From UHGV virus genome UHGV-0068847: a stretch of 27,295 bases of DNA; one strand, written 5' to 3'. Below are positions 8,320 through 12,329 of this stretch, piece after piece. The position numbers and the translations under genes are program-made. Below the pieces are notes generated by a model that ran no database searches, was not told the DNA's origin, and was given only the letters and a program-made list of their open reading frames with translations. The stretch is from a virus. Each line of letters opens with the position of its first letter. The first letter of the stretch is position 1.

Positions 8320-9186
8320 ATGAGCACTAAATTAACCGGCTACGTATGGGATGGTTGCGCAGCGTCGGGCATGAAGTTGTCTAGTGTCGCGATCATGGCT
8401 CGCCTTGCTGATTTCAGCAGCGATGAAGGTGTGTGCTGGCCGTCCATTGAAACTATTGCTCGCCAGCTTGGCGCAGGGCCGAGCACTATCAGAACGGCAA
8501 TCGCAAAGCTTGAAAAAGATGGCTGGCTCACGCGCACACAGCGCCGTAATGGTAACCGTAATGCTTCGAACGTGTACCGCCTGAATGTGGCGAAACTTCA
8601 GGCTGCCGCATTTTCTCAACTGTCAGATTCTGACACGTCAAAATCTGACGCATCAAAATTTGACGCCTCAAAAACTGACCCGTCGAAATCTGGCAAAAAC
8701 GGCGGTTTTGACCCGTCAGAATCTGGCGGGGATCCGTCAGTAAAATCAACACAAGATCCACAAGTAACTTCAAAACCCTCTTGTCCGGTTGCGGCGCAAC
8801 CCGACCCTGAGATTGTGATTACTGATCAGGCCAGACAGGTTTTGTCTTACCTGAACCAGACAACTGGTTCACGCTATCAGGTATGCAGCACGTCGCTGGA
8901 GAACATTCGTGCCCGTCTGCGGGAACGGTTCACTGTTGATGATCTGTGCCTTGTGGTGGATTACAAAAACGCTGATTGGCGTGATAGCGAGCAGGCTCAA
9001 TATCTCCGTCCGGCAACTCTGTTTATTCCAAAAAACTTCCCTGGTTACCTGCAAAGCGCGACCAAATGGTCTGCCGCTGGGCGACCTGAGCGCGTTAACG
9101 GTAAATGGACGGCTAACTCAGCCAGCCGCGCAAGCTTCCAAAATGTTGACTACTCACTTCCAGAACATTCGGGGTTCCGCTCATGA
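8320..9186 (+). CDS. Replication initiator, O-like (N-terminal wHTH plus conserved phage C-terminal domain), 288 aa
   Basis: N-terminal HTH segment (CWPSIETIARQLGAGPSTIRTAIAKLEKDGWL). The central low-complexity linker is encoded by iterons. The C-terminal YLNQTTGSRY...LRPATLF resembles the phage replication protein C-terminal domain. Confidence 0.85.
   Translation: MSTKLTGYVWDGCAASGMKLSSVAIMARLADFSSDEGVCWPSIETIARQLGAGPSTIRTAIAKLEKDGWLTRTQRRNGNRNASNVYRLNVAKLQAAAFSQLSDSDTSKSDASKFDASKTDPSKSGKNGGFDPSESGGDPSVKSTQDPQVTSKPSCPVAAQPDPEIVITDQARQVLSYLNQTTGSRYQVCSTSLENIRARLRERFTVDDLCLVVDYKNADWRDSEQAQYLRPATLFIPKNFPGYLQSATKWSAAGRPERVNGKWTANSASRASFQNVDYSLPEHSGFRS
8622..8727. repeat. Origin iterons inside the O-like gene
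   Basis: Five tandem 15-bp units starting at 8622, 8637, 8652, 8667 and 8682, consensus GTCAAAATCTGAC (each a GTCA-n5-TGAC palindrome). Further copies lie at about 8704 and 8715. A more AT-rich stretch follows at 8740-8775. Confidence 0.8.
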
Positions 9187-10064
9187 TGCCAAATAAATAT
9201 TGCCAGTCGCTGGCAGAACTGCGCAGTAAACCAGCTCACGAATTGAAAGAAGTTGGCGATCAGTGGCGAACACCGGATCTGCTGTTTTGGGGGATCAACG
9301 CGCTATTTGGTCCATTAGTTCTGGATTTGTTTGCTGACGACGACAACGCGAAATGCCCGGCATGGTACACCGCCGAAGATAACGCGCTGACCCAGGACTG
9401 GTCTGAACGTCTGGCAGAACTGGGTGGCGCAGGTTATGGCAACCCACCGTATAGCCGTTCGCAGTACCACGAGAAACAGGCGATCACTGGTATGACGCAC
9501 ATCATGAAGTACGCAGCAGCCCAGTGCGAGAAGGGCGGTCGCTATGTATTCCTGATAAAAGCCGCGCCAAGTGAAACGTGGTGGCCGGAAGATGCCGATC
9601 ACATTGTATTCATTCGCGGGCGCATTGGGTTCGATCTGCCAGTGTGGTTTGTACCTGCTGACGAAAAACAGAAGCCCACCAGCGCGTTTTTTGCCGGTGC
9701 CATAGCTGTATTCGATAAGTCATGGCGTGGTGAGCGGTTCAGCTATATCAACCGCACAGAACTGGAGGCAAAAGGTCGGGCATTTATGGCGCTGGCTCAA
9801 TTCGCTGTTGGCAAAGAGCCGACAATTGCAATGCGAGCACCCCAGGAGCCAGTCATACCATCGGAAACTGAGTCACGTATCTGGCCTCTCGAGGTTGGTC
9901 TGGTGTTTAACCAGGTGGAAGGCGTTGACGTATTGAGTGAGGCTCAGCAGAACAAGCTGAAAGCCAACATCAATCAACTCTGGCTGGAACGAACGGCCAC
10001 CAGCGAAATTATCACAATTGCGCGTGGTCTTGTCGGCAGCATGCAGGGGGTAACCCATGCGTGA
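9183..10064 (+). CDS. Phage Dam-type N6-adenine DNA methyltransferase with a C-terminal extension (293 aa)
   Basis: WRTPDLLF, LDLFADDDN and GNPPYS (NPPY motif IV) match the phage Dam family. ATGA overlap with the O-like stop. About 90 extra C-terminal residues have no recognisable function. Confidence 0.85.
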   Translation: MMPNKYCQSLAELRSKPAHELKEVGDQWRTPDLLFWGINALFGPLVLDLFADDDNAKCPAWYTAEDNALTQDWSERLAELGGAGYGNPPYSRSQYHEKQAITGMTHIMKYAAAQCEKGGRYVFLIKAAPSETWWPEDADHIVFIRGRIGFDLPVWFVPADEKQKPTSAFFAGAIAVFDKSWRGERFSYINRTELEAKGRAFMALAQFAVGKEPTIAMRAPQEPVIPSETESRIWPLEVGLVFNQVEGVDVLSEAQQNKLKANINQLWLERTATSEIITIARGLVGSMQGVTHA

Positions 10065-11946
10065 GATTATCGTTGATAACTTTGCTGGTGGCGGTGGCGC
10101 ATCAACGGGTATTGAACTGGCGATCGGACGCAGCGTGGATATTGCGATCAACCACGACGAAAACGCCATTGCGATGCACAAGACGAATCACCCGGAAACA
10201 CTGCATTACTGCGAATCCGTATTTGACGTGGATCCGGTAGCCGCCACCGGAGGTAATCCTGTCGGCCTGGCATGGTTTAGCCCGGACTGCCGACACTTCT
10301 CGAAGGCAAAAGGCGCCAAGCCTGTGAAAAAAGAGATACGCGGTCTGGCCTGGATTGTTCTGCGTTGGGCACTGGCAAAGCGACCGCGCGTGATGATGCT
10401 GGAGAACGTGGAAGAGTTCAAAACGTGGGGACCGCTATTACCAGCTGAGCCACAAAATCCCAATCTGGTGGGGGATGATTTGGCTGCATTTGTTGGCCCA
10501 GTTATACCGCCTTATGATGCGCAGCGTCCGGATCCGGCACGAGCTGGTGAAACATTTGAGGCATTTGTCGGCATGCTATCCACTGGTATTCCTGCTGATC
10601 ACCCGGCACTGGCTGAGGTTTGTGAGTTTCTGTCTATCGAAAGAGGTAGCGAGCAGGCGCAAAAGCTGGTGGATGGGCTTGGATATGATGTTGATTATCG
10701 CGAACTACGCGCGTGTGATTACGGCGCGCCGACGATCCGCAAACGCTTCTTCATGGTTATGCGCTGCGATGGCTGCCCAATCCAGTGGCCTGCAGTTACC
10801 CATGGGGATCCTAAGTCTCTGGAGGTGCAGAGCGGCAGGCTGATGCCATGGCGTACCGCTGCGGAATGTATCGACTGGAATGTTCCGGCCCTGTCCATCT
10901 TCGACCGCAAAAAAACGCTGGCGGAGAACACGCTGAAGCGGATCGCGCGCGGCATACAGCGCTTTGTTATCGAAAGTGCGTCGCCGTTTATCGTGAAGTG
11001 CAATCACACCAGCACCAAAACGAGTTACGACTGTTTCCGTGGTCAGAAGCTGGACGAGCCTTTGCAAACTATTACTAAAACCCACGGTTACGCGTTAGCT
11101 GTTCCACACCTGACAAAATTCCGCACTGGGGCAACCGGGCAGCCCGTTACCGAACCTGTCCCGACGGTAACCGCTGGCACGTCAAAACGCCCGGGTGGGA
11201 ATGGGCATGCACTCGGGATTGTTGAGGCTGCACTGACGCCATTCCTGGCGGGTAATGGTGGTAGTGAATACCAGGCTAAACCGCGCCCGCTGGATAAACC
11301 TGCTCATACCATTATGAAGCAATCCCGCGCCTGTCTTGTTGCGCCAGTGATAGCCCGCCAGTTTGGGGCCAGCGTCGGCCACCGGGCAGACGAACCGAGC
11401 GCCACAATTACAGCTGGTGGTGGAGGTAAATCACAATTGGTGGGCGCGTTTCTGGCTAAACACTACGGCGGTAACTATACGGGACCGGGTGTCAGTATGG
11501 ATGAACCCGCACACTCAGTGACCACTGTCGATCATCATGCGGTTGTTGCCTCTCATTTGGTGAAACTGCGTGGAACATGCCGCGACGGGCAACGTCTTGA
11601 TGTGCCCATGCCAACAATCACCTCTGGTGGCCAACACGTGGGTGAGGTACGCACATTTCTCGAGACGTATTGCGGGGAAAGTGACGATGAATGGCTGGTA
11701 ACGATCGATGGGGTTAAATACCAGATCGTTGATATCGGAATGCGCATGTTGCAGCCGCATGAACTCTACAAAGCGCAGGGCTTCCCGGATGGATACGTTA
11801 TTGATCAGGACTACCGTGGAAATCGCTATGCAAAAGATAAGCAGGTAGCCCGCTGTGGTAATGCGGTACCACCACCATTCGCCAGGGCGCTGGTGGAGGC
11901 AAATCTTCCGGAACTGTGTGCAGTGCAACATCAGGAGGTGGCATGA
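10057..11946 (+). CDS. DNA cytosine-5 methyltransferase, unusually long (629 aa)
   Basis: Motif I DNFAGGGGAS, motif IV SPDCRHFS, motif VI ENV, motif VIII DYGAPTIRKRFF, motif IX QGFPDGY and motif X GNAVPPPFARAL. A variable region of about 320 aa lies between motifs VIII and IX. Confidence 0.92.
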   Translation: MREIIVDNFAGGGGASTGIELAIGRSVDIAINHDENAIAMHKTNHPETLHYCESVFDVDPVAATGGNPVGLAWFSPDCRHFSKAKGAKPVKKEIRGLAWIVLRWALAKRPRVMMLENVEEFKTWGPLLPAEPQNPNLVGDDLAAFVGPVIPPYDAQRPDPARAGETFEAFVGMLSTGIPADHPALAEVCEFLSIERGSEQAQKLVDGLGYDVDYRELRACDYGAPTIRKRFFMVMRCDGCPIQWPAVTHGDPKSLEVQSGRLMPWRTAAECIDWNVPALSIFDRKKTLAENTLKRIARGIQRFVIESASPFIVKCNHTSTKTSYDCFRGQKLDEPLQTITKTHGYALAVPHLTKFRTGATGQPVTEPVPTVTAGTSKRPGGNGHALGIVEAALTPFLAGNGGSEYQAKPRPLDKPAHTIMKQSRACLVAPVIARQFGASVGHRADEPSATITAGGGGKSQLVGAFLAKHYGGNYTGPGVSMDEPAHSVTTVDHHAVVASHLVKLRGTCRDGQRLDVPMPTITSGGQHVGEVRTFLETYCGESDDEWLVTIDGVKYQIVDIGMRMLQPHELYKAQGFPDGYVIDQDYRGNRYAKDKQVARCGNAVPPPFARALVEANLPELCAVQHQEVA

Positions 11947-12329
11947 AACTTGTGCTCCCGTTCCCTCCGAGCGTGAACACCTACTGGCGCGCCCCTAACA
12001 AGGGGCCGCTGGCCGGTCGTCACCTCATTAGCGCTGATGGCCGTAAATACCAGAGCGCTGCCTGCGTGGCGATCATTGAGCAATTACGACGTCTCCCGAA
12101 GCCATCGACTGAACTGGCAGCGGTAGAAATCACTCTGTACCCGCCGGATGCGCGCCGCCGGGATATCGATAATTACAACAAAGCCCTGTTTGACGCGCTG
12201 ACGCATGCGGGTGTCTGGGAAGACGACAGCCAGATTAAGCGCATGCTGGTGGAATGGGGACCCGTAGTGCCGAAAGGTCGGGTAGAGATAACGATCAGCA
12301 GATATGAACCGGCGGGTGCAGCCGCCTGA
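11943..12329 (+). CDS. rusA: Holliday-junction resolvase RusA (128 aa)
   Basis: LPFPPSVNTYWR, RRRDIDNYNKALFDALT and WEDDSQI match the RusA signature. The ATG at 11943 forms an ATGA overlap with the MTase stop. Confidence 0.92.
   Translation: MKLVLPFPPSVNTYWRAPNKGPLAGRHLISADGRKYQSAACVAIIEQLRRLPKPSTELAAVEITLYPPDARRRDIDNYNKALFDALTHAGVWEDDSQIKRMLVEWGPVVPKGRVEITISRYEPAGAAA

What the first reader, a model, noticed from the sequence alone, without database searches (positions are those of the whole stretch)
11050..11661. C5-cytosine methyltransferase with six tandem TRD-like repeats (possible multispecific enzyme)
Between motif VIII (DYGAPTIRKRFF) and motif IX (QGFPDGY), the 629-aa MTase has about 320 aa, versus about 80-150 in monospecific enzymes. 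In that region I can read six copies of one module:
- LDEPLQTITKTHGYALAV
- VTEPVPTVTAGTS...ALGIV
- LDKPAHTIMKQSRACLVAPV
- ADEPSATITAGGGGKSQLVGAFL
- MDEPAHSVTTVDHHAVVASHLV
- LDVPMPTITSGGQHVGEVRTFL
The [LM]DEP-x2-T-[IV]-T core resembles the conserved Thr-hydrophobic (T-L/T-V) core motif of C5-MTase target-recognition domains. Tandem TRDs are the hallmark of the multispecific Bacillus phage enzymes (SPR, phi3T). A six-TRD enterobacterial enzyme would protect against many restriction systems at once.
Basis: partly seen in the sequence, partly recalled or inferred. Interest (0 to 1): 0.55.

Follow-up and report, generated by a model that had tools for sequence, protein, structure and literature searches.

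The report
Prophage cytosine methylase with tandem recognition-like modules
A Citrobacter prophage gene encodes a DNA cytosine methylase whose middle third is six diverged copies of a ~35-residue unit resembling the DNA-target-reading core of such enzymes; tested relatives block many different restriction enzymes, so it is probably a broad anti-restriction methylase and an ordinary member of a large family.

Summary
ORF 10057-11946 encodes a 629-aa C5-cytosine methyltransferase with all catalytic motifs. Residues 332-543 contain six copies of a ~35-aa module. A module profile built only from distant homologs scores each copy at 23-39 bits, against at most 7 bits in 1000 shuffles.

The array is not peculiar to this enzyme. 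Among the 150 best representatives of this phage/prophage family, module counts run from 0 to 12, median about 6. Seven module types occur in a conserved order. Close relatives differ by clean whole-module insertions and deletions.

The module layout, P-x-x-T-[IV]-T, then a Gly-rich turn, then a hydrophobic strand, matches the tandem target-recognition domains (TRDs) of Bacillus phage multispecific enzymes. SPR has three specificities and three such cores. Profile-level homology to those TRDs is not significant.

Published restriction-protection assays on family members report "relaxed specificity". The Paracoccus prophage enzymes partially protect AGCT, GGCC, CCWGG, CCGG, GCGC and ACGT sites, but not CGCG, GATC, CTAG or CATG. 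Aeromonas phage ARM81mr_p29 is 47% identical to this protein over its full length.

Two AlphaFold runs left the array unmodelled. Broad specificity is therefore likely, but one module per target remains unproven. This is a new member of a known family.

The parts
10057..11946 (+). Complete gene for the 629-aa orphan C5-cytosine DNA methyltransferase (stop codon included)
   Evidence: ORF list and translation. Pfam PF00145. PHROG 116 and 23072. 98-100% identical proteins are named DNA cytosine methyltransferase in Citrobacter species. The Foldseek match of the confident part of the model is to C5-MTases: 3g7u, DNMT1, M.HhaI and M.HaeIII.
10057..10764 (+). N-terminal catalytic half, aa 1-236. 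It contains motif I FAGGGG (aa 9-14), motif IV S-P-D-C (aa 75-78, catalytic Cys78), motif VI E-N-V (aa 116-118) and motif VIII DYGAPTIRKRFF (aa 221-232). A lineage-specific insertion lies at about aa 128-205.
   Evidence: These columns are invariant in family alignments. The AF2 model has pLDDT mostly above 85 here. The insertion is visible in alignment A4 and is shared with ARM81mr_p29.
10765..11049 (+). Conserved linker after motif VIII (aa 237-331), ending in the PFIVK strand that leads into the array
   Evidence: Conserved columns W244, P245, H249, D273, S280, I281, F282, R295, G299, P310 and F311. Modelled with moderate confidence up to about aa 310.
11050..11142 (+). Module 1 (type E), aa 332-362: LDEPLQTITKTHGYALAVPHLTKFRTGATGQ
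   Evidence: Independent module HMM 28.7 bits. Type-E HMM 51.3 bits.
11143..11286 (+). Module 2 (type G, with a long KRPGG loop), aa 363-410: PVTEPVPTVTAGTSKRPGGNGHALGIVEAALTPF...
   Evidence: Independent module HMM 23.3 bits. Type-G HMM 47.0 bits.
11287..11379 (+). Module 3 (type B), aa 411-441: PLDKPAHTIMKQSRACLVAPVIARQFGASV. This module is cleanly absent from close homologs P0063 and P0031.
   Evidence: Independent module HMM 24.8 bits. Type-B HMM 27.0 bits. Whole-module deletion seen in the alignment of close homologs.
11380..11493 (+). Module 4 (type C), aa 442-479: ADEPSATITAGGGGKSQLVGAFLAKHYGGNYTG
   Evidence: Independent module HMM 35.9 bits. Type-C HMM 48.3 bits. Close homologs carry an extra module inserted after ...KSQL.
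11494..11595 (+). Module 5 (type A), aa 480-513: SMDEPAHSVTTVDHHAVVASHLVKLRGTCRDGQ. This is the module most like the last TRD core (DEPAFTVNTIDRHG) of the Bacillus phage enzymes.
   Evidence: Independent module HMM 38.8 bits. BLASTP of aa 482-505 against H2 and rho11s aa 417-440 gives 46% identity, pairwise E 0.01.
11596..11694 (+). Module 6 (type D), aa 514-546: LDVPMPTITSGGQHVGEVRTFLETYCG. This is the most conserved module type of the family.
   Evidence: Independent module HMM 26.0 bits. P517, T520, H527, E530, V531, F534 and L535 are invariant in family alignments.
11695..11742 (+). Remnant of the terminal type-F module (aa 547-562, LVTIDGVKYQIVDIGM). Its EPLHTVTTKDRFG core is deleted.
   Evidence: 16-residue gap against EBCADF homologs. 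Type-F HMM matches only its C-terminal half, 19.5 bits. The same deletion is present in all eight close homologs aligned.
11743..11943 (+). C-terminal catalytic part, aa 563-629: motif IX RMLQPHELYKAQGFPDGY and motif X GNAVPPP (aa 601-607)
   Evidence: PDB sequence matches to DNMT1 and MET1 motifs IX-X. Invariant columns R563, M564, E569, G601, N602 and V604. pLDDT about 90.
9183..10064 (+). Upstream phage Dam-type N6-adenine methyltransferase gene. Its last 8 nt overlap the start of the C5-MTase gene (ATGCGTGA).
   Evidence: Pfam PF05869, E 1.2e-43. Overlap read directly from the sequence.

Best explanation
The gene encodes an orphan C5-cytosine DNA methyltransferase. It sits in the early/replication region of a lambdoid Citrobacter prophage and is probably expressed with the adjacent Dam-type adenine methylase during lytic growth.

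It belongs to a very large phage/prophage family. In that family the variable region between motifs VIII and IX is not one target-recognition domain (TRD). It is a tandem array of ~35-aa modules. Each module has a P-x-x-T-[IV]-T core, a type-specific Gly-rich loop, and a hydrophobic strand.

Proposed mechanism (inferred): one catalytic domain uses the modules alternately as TRD cores, as in the Bacillus phage multispecific enzymes. The enzyme would then methylate several different short motifs and blunt many restriction systems at once.

What is shown: the gene, the catalytic motifs, the six modules, their family-wide modular gain and loss, and full-length homology to enzymes reported to have relaxed, many-site specificity.

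What is inferred: that this particular protein is active, that it is multi-site, and that each module (or module type) supplies one specificity.
For: 1. All C5-MTase motifs are intact and the catalytic fold is predicted with confidence.

2. There are six significant modules.

3. Seven module types have type-specific conserved loops: D = TITAGGxHxGEVRAFL, F = TVTTKDRFGLV, A = TVTTxDHxALV, C = GTVxAGGxKxA, and G with a KRPGG loop. They occur in a collinear order, E(G)B(B)C(C)A(A)DF.

4. Proteins that are 75-96% identical differ by exact in-register whole-module insertions and deletions. So modules are autonomous units and not parts of one compact fold.

5. The core/turn/strand layout and the 30-48 aa spacing are the same as in SPR (3 cores; 'triple sequence specificity' in the title cited), rho11s and H2 (4 cores) and SPbeta (2 cores). 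The only local BLAST and HMM hits to those enzymes fall exactly on their TRD cores.

6. Experiments on family members. The Paracoccus aminophilus prophage enzymes JCM7686_0772 and _2655 partially protect against AluI, BsuRI, EcoRII, HpaII, MspI, Hin6I, TaiI, PvuII, XhoI, NciI and others. They give no protection against Bsh1236I (CGCG), GATC, CTAG, CATG or CCATGG cutters (PMC3925955 text and Additional file 8). GCGC protected but CGCG not, and AGCT protected with no CC in it, argues for a set of discrete motifs and against a dinucleotide rule.

7. PMC5537653 states that these ~700-aa enzymes and ARM81mr_p29 have relaxed specificity. ARM81mr_p29 is 46.7% identical to this protein over its full length and has modules BCADF. 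Pyei1_p05 is about 69% identical to the tested Paracoccus enzymes (PMC6536676), is 37.5% identical to this protein, and has about 8 modules.
Against: - No methylome or assay exists for this protein or for any relative above 47% identity.
- The published assays show only partial protection, and their authors call it 'relaxed' specificity, not multispecificity. They also summarise it as modification of a cytosine in CC.
- I could not retrieve the tested Paracoccus proteins themselves. The link runs through a 69%-identical proxy.
- The original ARM81 paper could not be read.
- Module profiles do not significantly match the Bacillus TRDs or any PDB sequence.
- AF2 gave no structure for the array in two runs with different alignments.
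- The conserved order of module types is also what a single ordered superstructure would show.
- This clade has lost the core of the terminal F module, which sits where the single TRD core of ordinary enzymes sits.
Confidence: 0.5

Rival explanations
1. The enzyme has low specificity, not multiple specificities. The module array acts as one flexible, repetitive DNA-binding region, for example hairpins that wrap or slide on DNA. It gives the catalytic domain loose sequence preference, such as a C in CC and some other contexts. No module corresponds to a particular target.
For: The experimenters describe family members as having 'relaxed substrate specificity', with only partial protection at every protected site. 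Module types occur in a fixed order, as expected for an ordered assembly. The P and T of every module are almost invariant, which suggests a common structural or backbone-contact role. No significant profile match to proven TRDs was found.
Against: The protection pattern is motif-discrete. GCGC, AGCT, ACGT, GGCC and CCGG are protected, while CGCG, GATC, CTAG and CATG are not. The type-specific loops after T-[IV]-T are strongly conserved across phyla, for example between Bacillus phi105 and Citrobacter. That is what fixed recognition surfaces would show. Whole modules come and go between near-identical proteins.
Confidence: 0.3
2. The enzyme is effectively monospecific. Only one module is the working TRD core, most plausibly the invariant type-D module next to motif IX. 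The other modules are pseudo-domains, spacers or evolutionary debris.
For: Type D is by far the most conserved module, with invariant P517, T520, H527, E530, V531, F534 and L535. It ends almost every array together with F; 198 of 272 arrays end in DF. From my memory, not checked here: inactive 'pseudo-domains' are described in the Bacillus phage enzymes.
Against: Tested family members protect many unrelated sites. The other module types are also conserved across phyla and maintained in thousands of proteins, which is unlikely for inert spacers.
Confidence: 0.12
3. The protein is inactive as a DNA methylase in this clade, or has another substrate. It has lost the core of the terminal module that occupies the canonical TRD position, and it carries S-P-D-C in place of the usual P-C-Q at motif IV.
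For: 16-residue deletion of the F core. One family member, Phi2LM21_p23, showed no activity in E. coli.
Against: S-P-D-C is invariant across the family, including the clades with demonstrated activity. The F-less form is conserved in many Citrobacter, Salmonella, Klebsiella, Enterobacter and E. coli prophages, some in clusters of more than 1000 member sequences, and 27 of 272 diverse arrays end in AD. All catalytic residues are intact.
Confidence: 0.05

Closest known systems
Phage and prophage m5C methyltransferases with 'relaxed substrate specificity': Aeromonas phage phiARM81mr ARM81mr_p29, and Paracoccus aminophilus prophage JCM7686_0772 and JCM7686_2655 (Dziewit et al. 2014, PMC3925955; Decewicz et al. 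2017, PMC5537653)
   Same: Full-length homology: 46.7% identity to ARM81mr_p29 over 100% of the query, and 37.5% to Pyei1_p05, a 69% relative of the Paracoccus enzymes. The S-P-D-C motif IV is shared. The same module array is present (BCADF in ARM81mr_p29, about 8 modules in Pyei1_p05). The catalytic-domain insertion is shared with ARM81mr_p29. Both genes sit next to the phage replication genes.
   Different: The module set differs: E-G-B-C-A-D here, with the terminal F core deleted. The host clade differs (Enterobacterales). No activity data exist for this protein. The published work does not describe the module array.
Multispecific C5-MTases of Bacillus phages (M.SPRI, M.Rho11sI, M.H2I, M.SPBetaI, M.Phi3TI)
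   Same: They are phage orphan C5-MTases. The variable region between motifs VIII and IX contains several tandem units. Each unit has one (P)-T-[LIV]-T/S core, a Gly-containing turn and a hydrophobic strand, spaced 30-48 aa apart. The best local similarity of module 5 is to their last TRD core, DEPAFTVNTIDRHG. Tandem TRDs giving multiple recognition sequences is the accepted model for these enzymes (PMC8936443; PMC12707154).
   Different: The catalytic domains belong to different subfamilies (SPCQ against SPDC; BLASTP finds only short fragments). The Bacillus enzymes have 2-4 units, against 6 here and up to 12 in the family. Module profiles do not match their TRDs significantly. Their multispecificity was proven by deletion analysis; here it is inferred.
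Monospecific C5-MTases (M.HaeIII, M.HhaI; PDB 1dct, 1hmy)
   Same: Same catalytic fold and motifs. They carry a single TRD core of the same kind just before motif IX. Examples are NEPAFTVQAS in M.HaeIII (my recalled sequence) and WDKPSPTITT in a monospecific enzyme printed in PMC11954522.
   Different: They have one core and a compact TRD of 80-150 aa. This protein has about 330 aa with six cores, and the core at the canonical last position is deleted.

Membership tests
C5-cytosine DNA methyltransferase (Pfam PF00145) | Conserved motifs I (FxGxG), IV (catalytic Cys), VI (ENV), VIII (RxR), IX and X (GN.V) in the canonical order | tested here: met
   PF00145 at E 3.4e-20, 73 bits against a cut-off of 22. 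F9-G14, C78, E116-V118, R228/R230, R563-E569 and G601-V604 are invariant in family alignments. One variant: motif IV reads S-P-D-C instead of P-C-Q.
C5-cytosine DNA methyltransferase (Pfam PF00145) | Class I methyltransferase fold of the catalytic domain | tested here: met
   AF2 pLDDT is mostly above 85 for aa 1-300 and 560-620. Foldseek hits to 3g7u, DNMT1, MET1, M.HhaI and M.HaeIII at E 1e-9 to 1e-6.
Phage 'relaxed-specificity' m5C MTases (ARM81mr_p29 / JCM7686_0772 type) | Full-length sequence homology to the characterised members | tested here: met
   46.7% identity over 638 columns to ARM81mr_p29. 37.5% identity (E 5e-136) to Pyei1_p05, which the literature gives as about 69% identical to JCM7686_0772 and _2655. 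The JCM7686 proteins themselves were not retrieved.
Phage 'relaxed-specificity' m5C MTases (ARM81mr_p29 / JCM7686_0772 type) | Long variable region made of tandem P-x-x-T-[IV]-T modules | tested here: met
   Six modules here, five in ARM81mr_p29 and about eight in Pyei1_p05. The 150 best family representatives have 0-12.
Phage 'relaxed-specificity' m5C MTases (ARM81mr_p29 / JCM7686_0772 type) | Partial protection of DNA against many unrelated m5C-sensitive restriction enzymes | not testable with these tools
   Shown only for homologs (PMC3925955 Additional file 8; PMC5537653).
Multispecific C5-MTases of the Bacillus phage type (SPR, phi3T, rho11s, H2, SPbeta) | Several non-overlapping TRD units in tandem between motifs VIII and IX, each with one T-[LIV] core | tested here: met
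   Six cores spaced 32-48 aa apart, against 3, 4, 4 and 2 cores spaced 30-48 aa in SPR, rho11s, H2 and SPbeta.
Multispecific C5-MTases of the Bacillus phage type (SPR, phi3T, rho11s, H2, SPbeta) | Sequence homology of the units to the characterised TRDs | tested here: inconclusive
   The general module HMM gives negative scores. Type-B and type-F HMMs land on SPTLTTMGGGH and EPAFTVNTIDRHGV at rank 0-3 of 1000 shuffles. BLASTP of module 5 against the H2/rho11s last TRD gives 46% identity over 24 aa, pairwise E 0.01. The hits are positionally right but statistically weak.
Multispecific C5-MTases of the Bacillus phage type (SPR, phi3T, rho11s, H2, SPbeta) | Same catalytic-domain subfamily | tested here: not met
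   BLASTP finds only short fragments (E 0.01 or worse) between this protein and SPR, rho11s, H2 or SPbeta. Motif IV differs (SPDC against SPCQ).
Multispecific C5-MTases of the Bacillus phage type (SPR, phi3T, rho11s, H2, SPbeta) | Each unit is necessary and sufficient for one distinct target sequence | not testable with these tools
   This needs methylome mapping of module deletion and swap variants.

The most novel reading that the evidence does not exclude
This family, with thousands of phage and prophage genes across Proteobacteria, Firmicutes and Actinobacteria, is a second and much larger lineage of truly multispecific C5-methyltransferases. Each ~35-aa module would be a minimal, self-contained TRD. 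Arrays of up to 12 would be built and edited by in-register module gain and loss, so a phage's protective methylation repertoire evolves cassette by cassette. The natural variants around this gene, with 5, 6, 7 and 8 modules at 75-96% identity, would then be a ready-made series linking module to motif.
Probability: 0.35. Interest if true: 0.75.

Novelty: new member of a known kind. Interest (0 to 1): 0.55.

Why it matters
If the modules are individual TRDs, this family would extend tandem-TRD multispecificity well beyond its current textbook examples. A 2025 review still cites only Bacillus phages for it. It would become a widespread phage anti-restriction strategy with far larger arrays.

It would also supply a natural code linking short peptide modules to DNA motifs. 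That would be useful for predicting phage and plasmid escape from restriction, and for engineering programmable 5mC writers.

Practically, such prophage enzymes are largely missed by standard PacBio methylomes and are probably silent in lysogens. Their effect on horizontal transfer into strains carrying restriction or 5mC-dependent Type IV systems is therefore likely under-counted.

If the enzymes are simply sloppy, the gene is an ordinary member of a family that has already been described.

Tried and rejected
- Module profile (130 diverse modules, alignment A1) against all PDB chain sequences. Only a chance xylanase hit at E 6.8, so no sequence link to a solved TRD.
- AlphaFold2 of the window protein with 138 diverse homologs, and of the commonest architecture (P0329, EBCADF) with 94 architecture-matched homologs. 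In both, the catalytic domain is confident but the whole array has pLDDT below 50 and almost no secondary structure. Neither a beta-solenoid nor independent TRD folds can be asserted.
- DNA-level repeats: none found by Tandem Repeats Finder or by seed extension. I rejected recent duplication or slippage as the origin.
- General module HMM against the SPR, rho11s, H2 and SPbeta enzymes: not significant.
- Single-linkage clustering of modules merged everything. I replaced it with Louvain communities.
- The first hhalign test used overlapping module windows, so the adjacent-pair scores are trivial. Only non-adjacent pairs were used.
- Papers not held: Trautner 1996, Dziewit & Radlinska 2016 and Sethmann 1999.
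- Literature searches for a description of tandem or multiple TRDs in this family, or of multispecific enzymes outside Bacillus phages, found none.
- I considered the idea that six TRDs is an enterobacterial oddity and rejected it. It is the family norm.
Full report
**Observation**

The window carries a lambdoid prophage. The ORF at 10057-11946 (+) is intact and encodes 629 aa. It matches Pfam PF00145, the C-5 cytosine DNA methylase family (E 3.4e-20), and PHROG DNA-methyltransferase families. Proteins 98-100% identical to it are annotated as DNA cytosine methyltransferase in Citrobacter freundii, C. werkmanii and C. youngae, so the host is a Citrobacter.

All catalytic motifs are present and fall in invariant columns of family alignments:
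- Motif I: FAGGGG, aa 9-14.
- Motif IV: S-P-D-C, aa 75-78. This is a family-wide variant of P-C-Q.
- Motif VI: ENV, aa 116-118.
- Motif VIII: DYGAPTIRKRFF, aa 221-232.
- Motif IX: RMLQPHELYKAQGFP, from aa 563.
- Motif X: GNAVPPP, aa 601-607.

**Are the six copies real?**

I collected modules from distant homologs and built a module HMM that excluded this protein and all relatives of 75% identity or more. The HMM finds exactly six domains in the protein, at aa 332-362, 363-411, 411-441, 442-480, 480-510 and 514-543. They score 23-39 bits each. The maximum over 1000 shuffles of the region is 7.0 bits. Profile-profile comparison of non-adjacent modules gives E-values from 1e-8 to 6e-4.

There is no repeat at the DNA level, so the copies are old and diverged. 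The unit has three parts:
- a core, [LMV]-[DT]-[EKV]-P-x-x-[TS]-[IV]-[TM];
- a loop of 4-12 residues, often Gly-rich;
- a hydrophobic strand (ALAVPHL, LVAPVIA, LVGAFLA, VVASHLV, VRTFL) ending in a K/R-x-x-G turn.

**The family**

An exhaustive HMMER search of 1.84 billion cluster representatives gives 2433 proteins at E 1e-30 or better. The 150 best (E below 1e-119, 43-78% identical) carry 0-12 modules, median about 6, with a median spacing of 35 aa. Phage records with a homolog include the following:
- Escherichia phages Flotzy and Eeyore;
- Klebsiella phages;
- Citrobacter phage phiNP;
- Pectobacterium phage ZF40;
- Aeromonas phages LPM4 and phiARM81mr;
- Bacillus phage phi105 (458 aa, three modules);
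- Vibrio, Pseudomonas, Burkholderia and Ralstonia phages;
- more than 170 Gordonia and Mycobacterium phages.

Six modules is therefore normal for this family, not a special property of this enzyme.

**Module types and their evolution**

Community clustering of 1832 modules gives seven types, each with a characteristic conserved loop. Examples are D (P.PTITAGG.H.GEVRAFL.KYYG), F (EPLHTVTTKDRFGLVT), A (TVTT.DH.ALVTSHL.KLRGT), C (KPLGTV.AGG.K.ALV.AFLAKHYGG) and G (long KRPGG loop).

The types occur in a nearly fixed order, E(G)(E)B(B)C(C)A(A)(A)DF. This protein reads E-G-B-C-A-D. After D comes only the C-terminal half of an F module. A 16-residue deletion removes the F core, GQxxxEPLHTVTTK. That core sits where the single TRD core of ordinary C5-MTases sits, immediately before motif IX.

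Proteins 75-96% identical to this one differ by clean, in-register whole-module insertions and deletions. P0063 and P0031 lack module 3. P0037 and P0041 have one extra module after module 4's core. P0057 and P0118 have a further one. Modules are thus autonomous, exchangeable units. That argues against a single compact TRD fold.

**Comparison with proven multi-TRD enzymes**

I fetched the SPR, rho11s, H2 and SPbeta methyltransferase genes. Their variable regions contain 3, 4, 4 and 2 cores respectively. The cores are of the type (S)PT[LI]TT, SHTLSA or EPAFTVNT. Each is followed by a Gly-containing turn and a hydrophobic strand (KIAV, GVAVG), with spacings of 30-48 aa. SPR is the enzyme with 'triple sequence specificity' (title cited) and has three cores. 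The accepted model is tandem TRDs giving multiple recognition sequences (PMC8936443; PMC12707154).

The anatomy here is the same, with spacings of 32-48 aa. Statistical homology is weak:
- The general module HMM does not match those enzymes.
- Type-B and type-F HMMs land exactly on SPTLTTMGGGH and EPAFTVNTIDRHGV, at rank 0-3 of 1000 shuffles.
- The best BLASTP segment between this protein and H2 or rho11s is module 5 (aa 482-505) against their last TRD core: 46% identity over 24 aa, pairwise E 0.01.
- The catalytic domains belong to different subfamilies.

The protein therefore works like those enzymes by anatomy. It is not a member of their lineage.

**Structure**

Two AlphaFold2 runs were made. 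The first used this protein with 138 homologs. The second used the commonest architecture, EBCADF, with 94 architecture-matched homologs. Both give a confident catalytic domain that matches solved C5-MTases. Both give pLDDT below 50 and essentially no secondary structure across the whole array.

A regular solenoid backed by this much alignment would usually be predicted, so the result leans weakly towards flexible units that order only on DNA.

**Experimental literature**

The decisive context is published. Dziewit et al. 2014 (PMC3925955) expressed two Paracoccus aminophilus prophage m5C MTases, JCM7686_0772 and JCM7686_2655. They found 'relaxed substrate specificity'. Their Additional file 8 lists the results.

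| Outcome | Enzymes (sites) |
|---|---|
| Partial protection | AluI (AGCT), BsuRI (GGCC), EcoRII (CCWGG), Bme1390I (CCNGG), NciI, HpaII and MspI (CCGG), Hin6I (GCGC), PauI, TaiI (ACGT), PvuII, XhoI, BglI, CaiI, EcoO109I, HpyF10VI |
| Complete cleavage | Bsh1236I (CGCG), Bsp143I (GATC), FspBI (CTAG), Hin1II (CATG), NcoI (CCATGG), BspLI (GGNNCC), MluI, HinfI and others |

Decewicz et al. 2017 (PMC5537653) say these roughly 700-aa proteins are widespread in phages. They also say ARM81mr_p29 and ARM81ld_p31 of the Aeromonas ARM81 phages have relaxed specificity too.

ARM81mr_p29 is exactly the phage hit H32. It is 46.7% identical to this protein over its full length, has modules B-C-A-D-F, and shares the same catalytic-domain insertion. 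Pyei1_p05 is about 69% identical to the tested Paracoccus enzymes (PMC6536676). It is 37.5% identical to this protein and has about eight modules.

None of these papers describes the module array. A 2025 review still attributes multi-TRD enzymes only to Bacillus phages.

**Interpretation**

The protection pattern is not explained by a dinucleotide rule. GCGC is protected and CGCG is not. AGCT is protected although it contains no CC. That fits a set of discrete motifs better than general sloppiness, and the number of distinct protected site classes is of the same order as the number of modules in the tested enzymes' close relative.

Three cautions apply. Protection was partial everywhere. The authors call it relaxed specificity. 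Nothing has been measured for this protein.

I put about 0.5 on alternating use of the modules as TRD cores (true multispecificity). I put about 0.3 on a collectively flexible, low-specificity DNA-binding array, about 0.12 on a single working module with pseudo-domains, and about 0.05 on inactivity.

**Context and likely biology**

The gene lies between the replication gene (8320-9186) plus a Dam-type adenine methylase (9183-10064, PF05869) on one side and RusA and Ant/Rha genes on the other. Its ATG overlaps the Dam stop by 8 nt, which suggests co-expression of the two methylases from the early-right operon.

The inferred role is to methylate replicating phage DNA at many sites before packaging, so that progeny survive restriction in new hosts. 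DNA-level similarity to other phages is mosaic within the gene, which is consistent with recombination shuffling its parts.

**Verdict**

The protein is a new member of a known, experimentally flagged family of broad-specificity phage C5-MTases. The undescribed part is the family-wide tandem-module architecture, which turns 'relaxed specificity' into a directly testable multi-TRD hypothesis.

Noticed in passing
window 9183-10064 and 10057-10064: A phage Dam-type N6-adenine methyltransferase gene (PF05869, 293 aa) ends 8 nt inside the C5-MTase gene (ATGCGTGA overlap). The prophage therefore carries two orphan methylases that are probably translationally coupled, just downstream of the replication gene. 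The specificity of the adenine enzyme (GATC-like or non-specific) was not examined.
   Followed up: partly
window 10279-10290 (aa 75-78): Catalytic motif IV reads S-P-D-C-R-H-F-S, with an Asp between the Pro and the catalytic Cys, instead of the canonical P-C-Q-x-F-S. This is invariant across the whole family, including clades with demonstrated activity.
   Followed up: partly
window ~10438-10671 (aa ~128-205): An insertion of about 70 residues lies between motifs VI and VIII. It is split in two blocks (PAEPQNPNLVGDDLAAFVGPVIPPYDAQ and TGIPADHPALAEVCEFLSIERGSEQAQKLVDG). It is absent from most family members but shared with Aeromonas phage ARM81mr_p29. AF2 models part of it as helices. Function unknown.
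   Followed up: no
window 11683-11700 (aa ~543-548, ...GESDDEWL...): A 16-residue deletion removes the core of the terminal type-F module, the position of the canonical TRD core before motif IX. It is shared by all eight close enterobacterial homologs aligned. Of 272 diverse family arrays, 27 also end without F.
   Followed up: partly
window 10057-10436 versus 10437-11946: DNA similarity to known phages is mosaic within the gene. The first ~380 nt are 84-85% identical to Citrobacter phage phiNP and Escherichia phages Flotzy and Eeyore. Nucleotides 488-1386 or 634-1385 of the gene match other E. coli prophages at 78-87%. No record covers 80% or more of the gene, which suggests recombination breakpoints inside it.
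   Followed up: no
window 11916-12329: The listed RusA ORF starts at a GTG 31 nt inside the end of the methylase gene. The real start may be further downstream. Not checked.
   Followed up: no
L001 1477-2853 (Bacillus phage phi105 record KY197768.1): This record has an unannotated 458-aa homolog with only three modules (types A-D-F). The stretch SHLIKLRGTCRDGQ...PMPTITAGGLHVGEVRAFL is almost identical to the Citrobacter protein despite the phylum-level distance between hosts.
   Followed up: partly
L023 (CP059262.1, 'MAG: Exiguobacterium profundum'): A contig labelled as a Firmicute MAG carries a gene 70% identical to the Paracoccus phage Pyei1 methylase, among otherwise Rhodobacterales hits. 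This could be a binning or assembly mix-up or a recent transfer.
   Followed up: no
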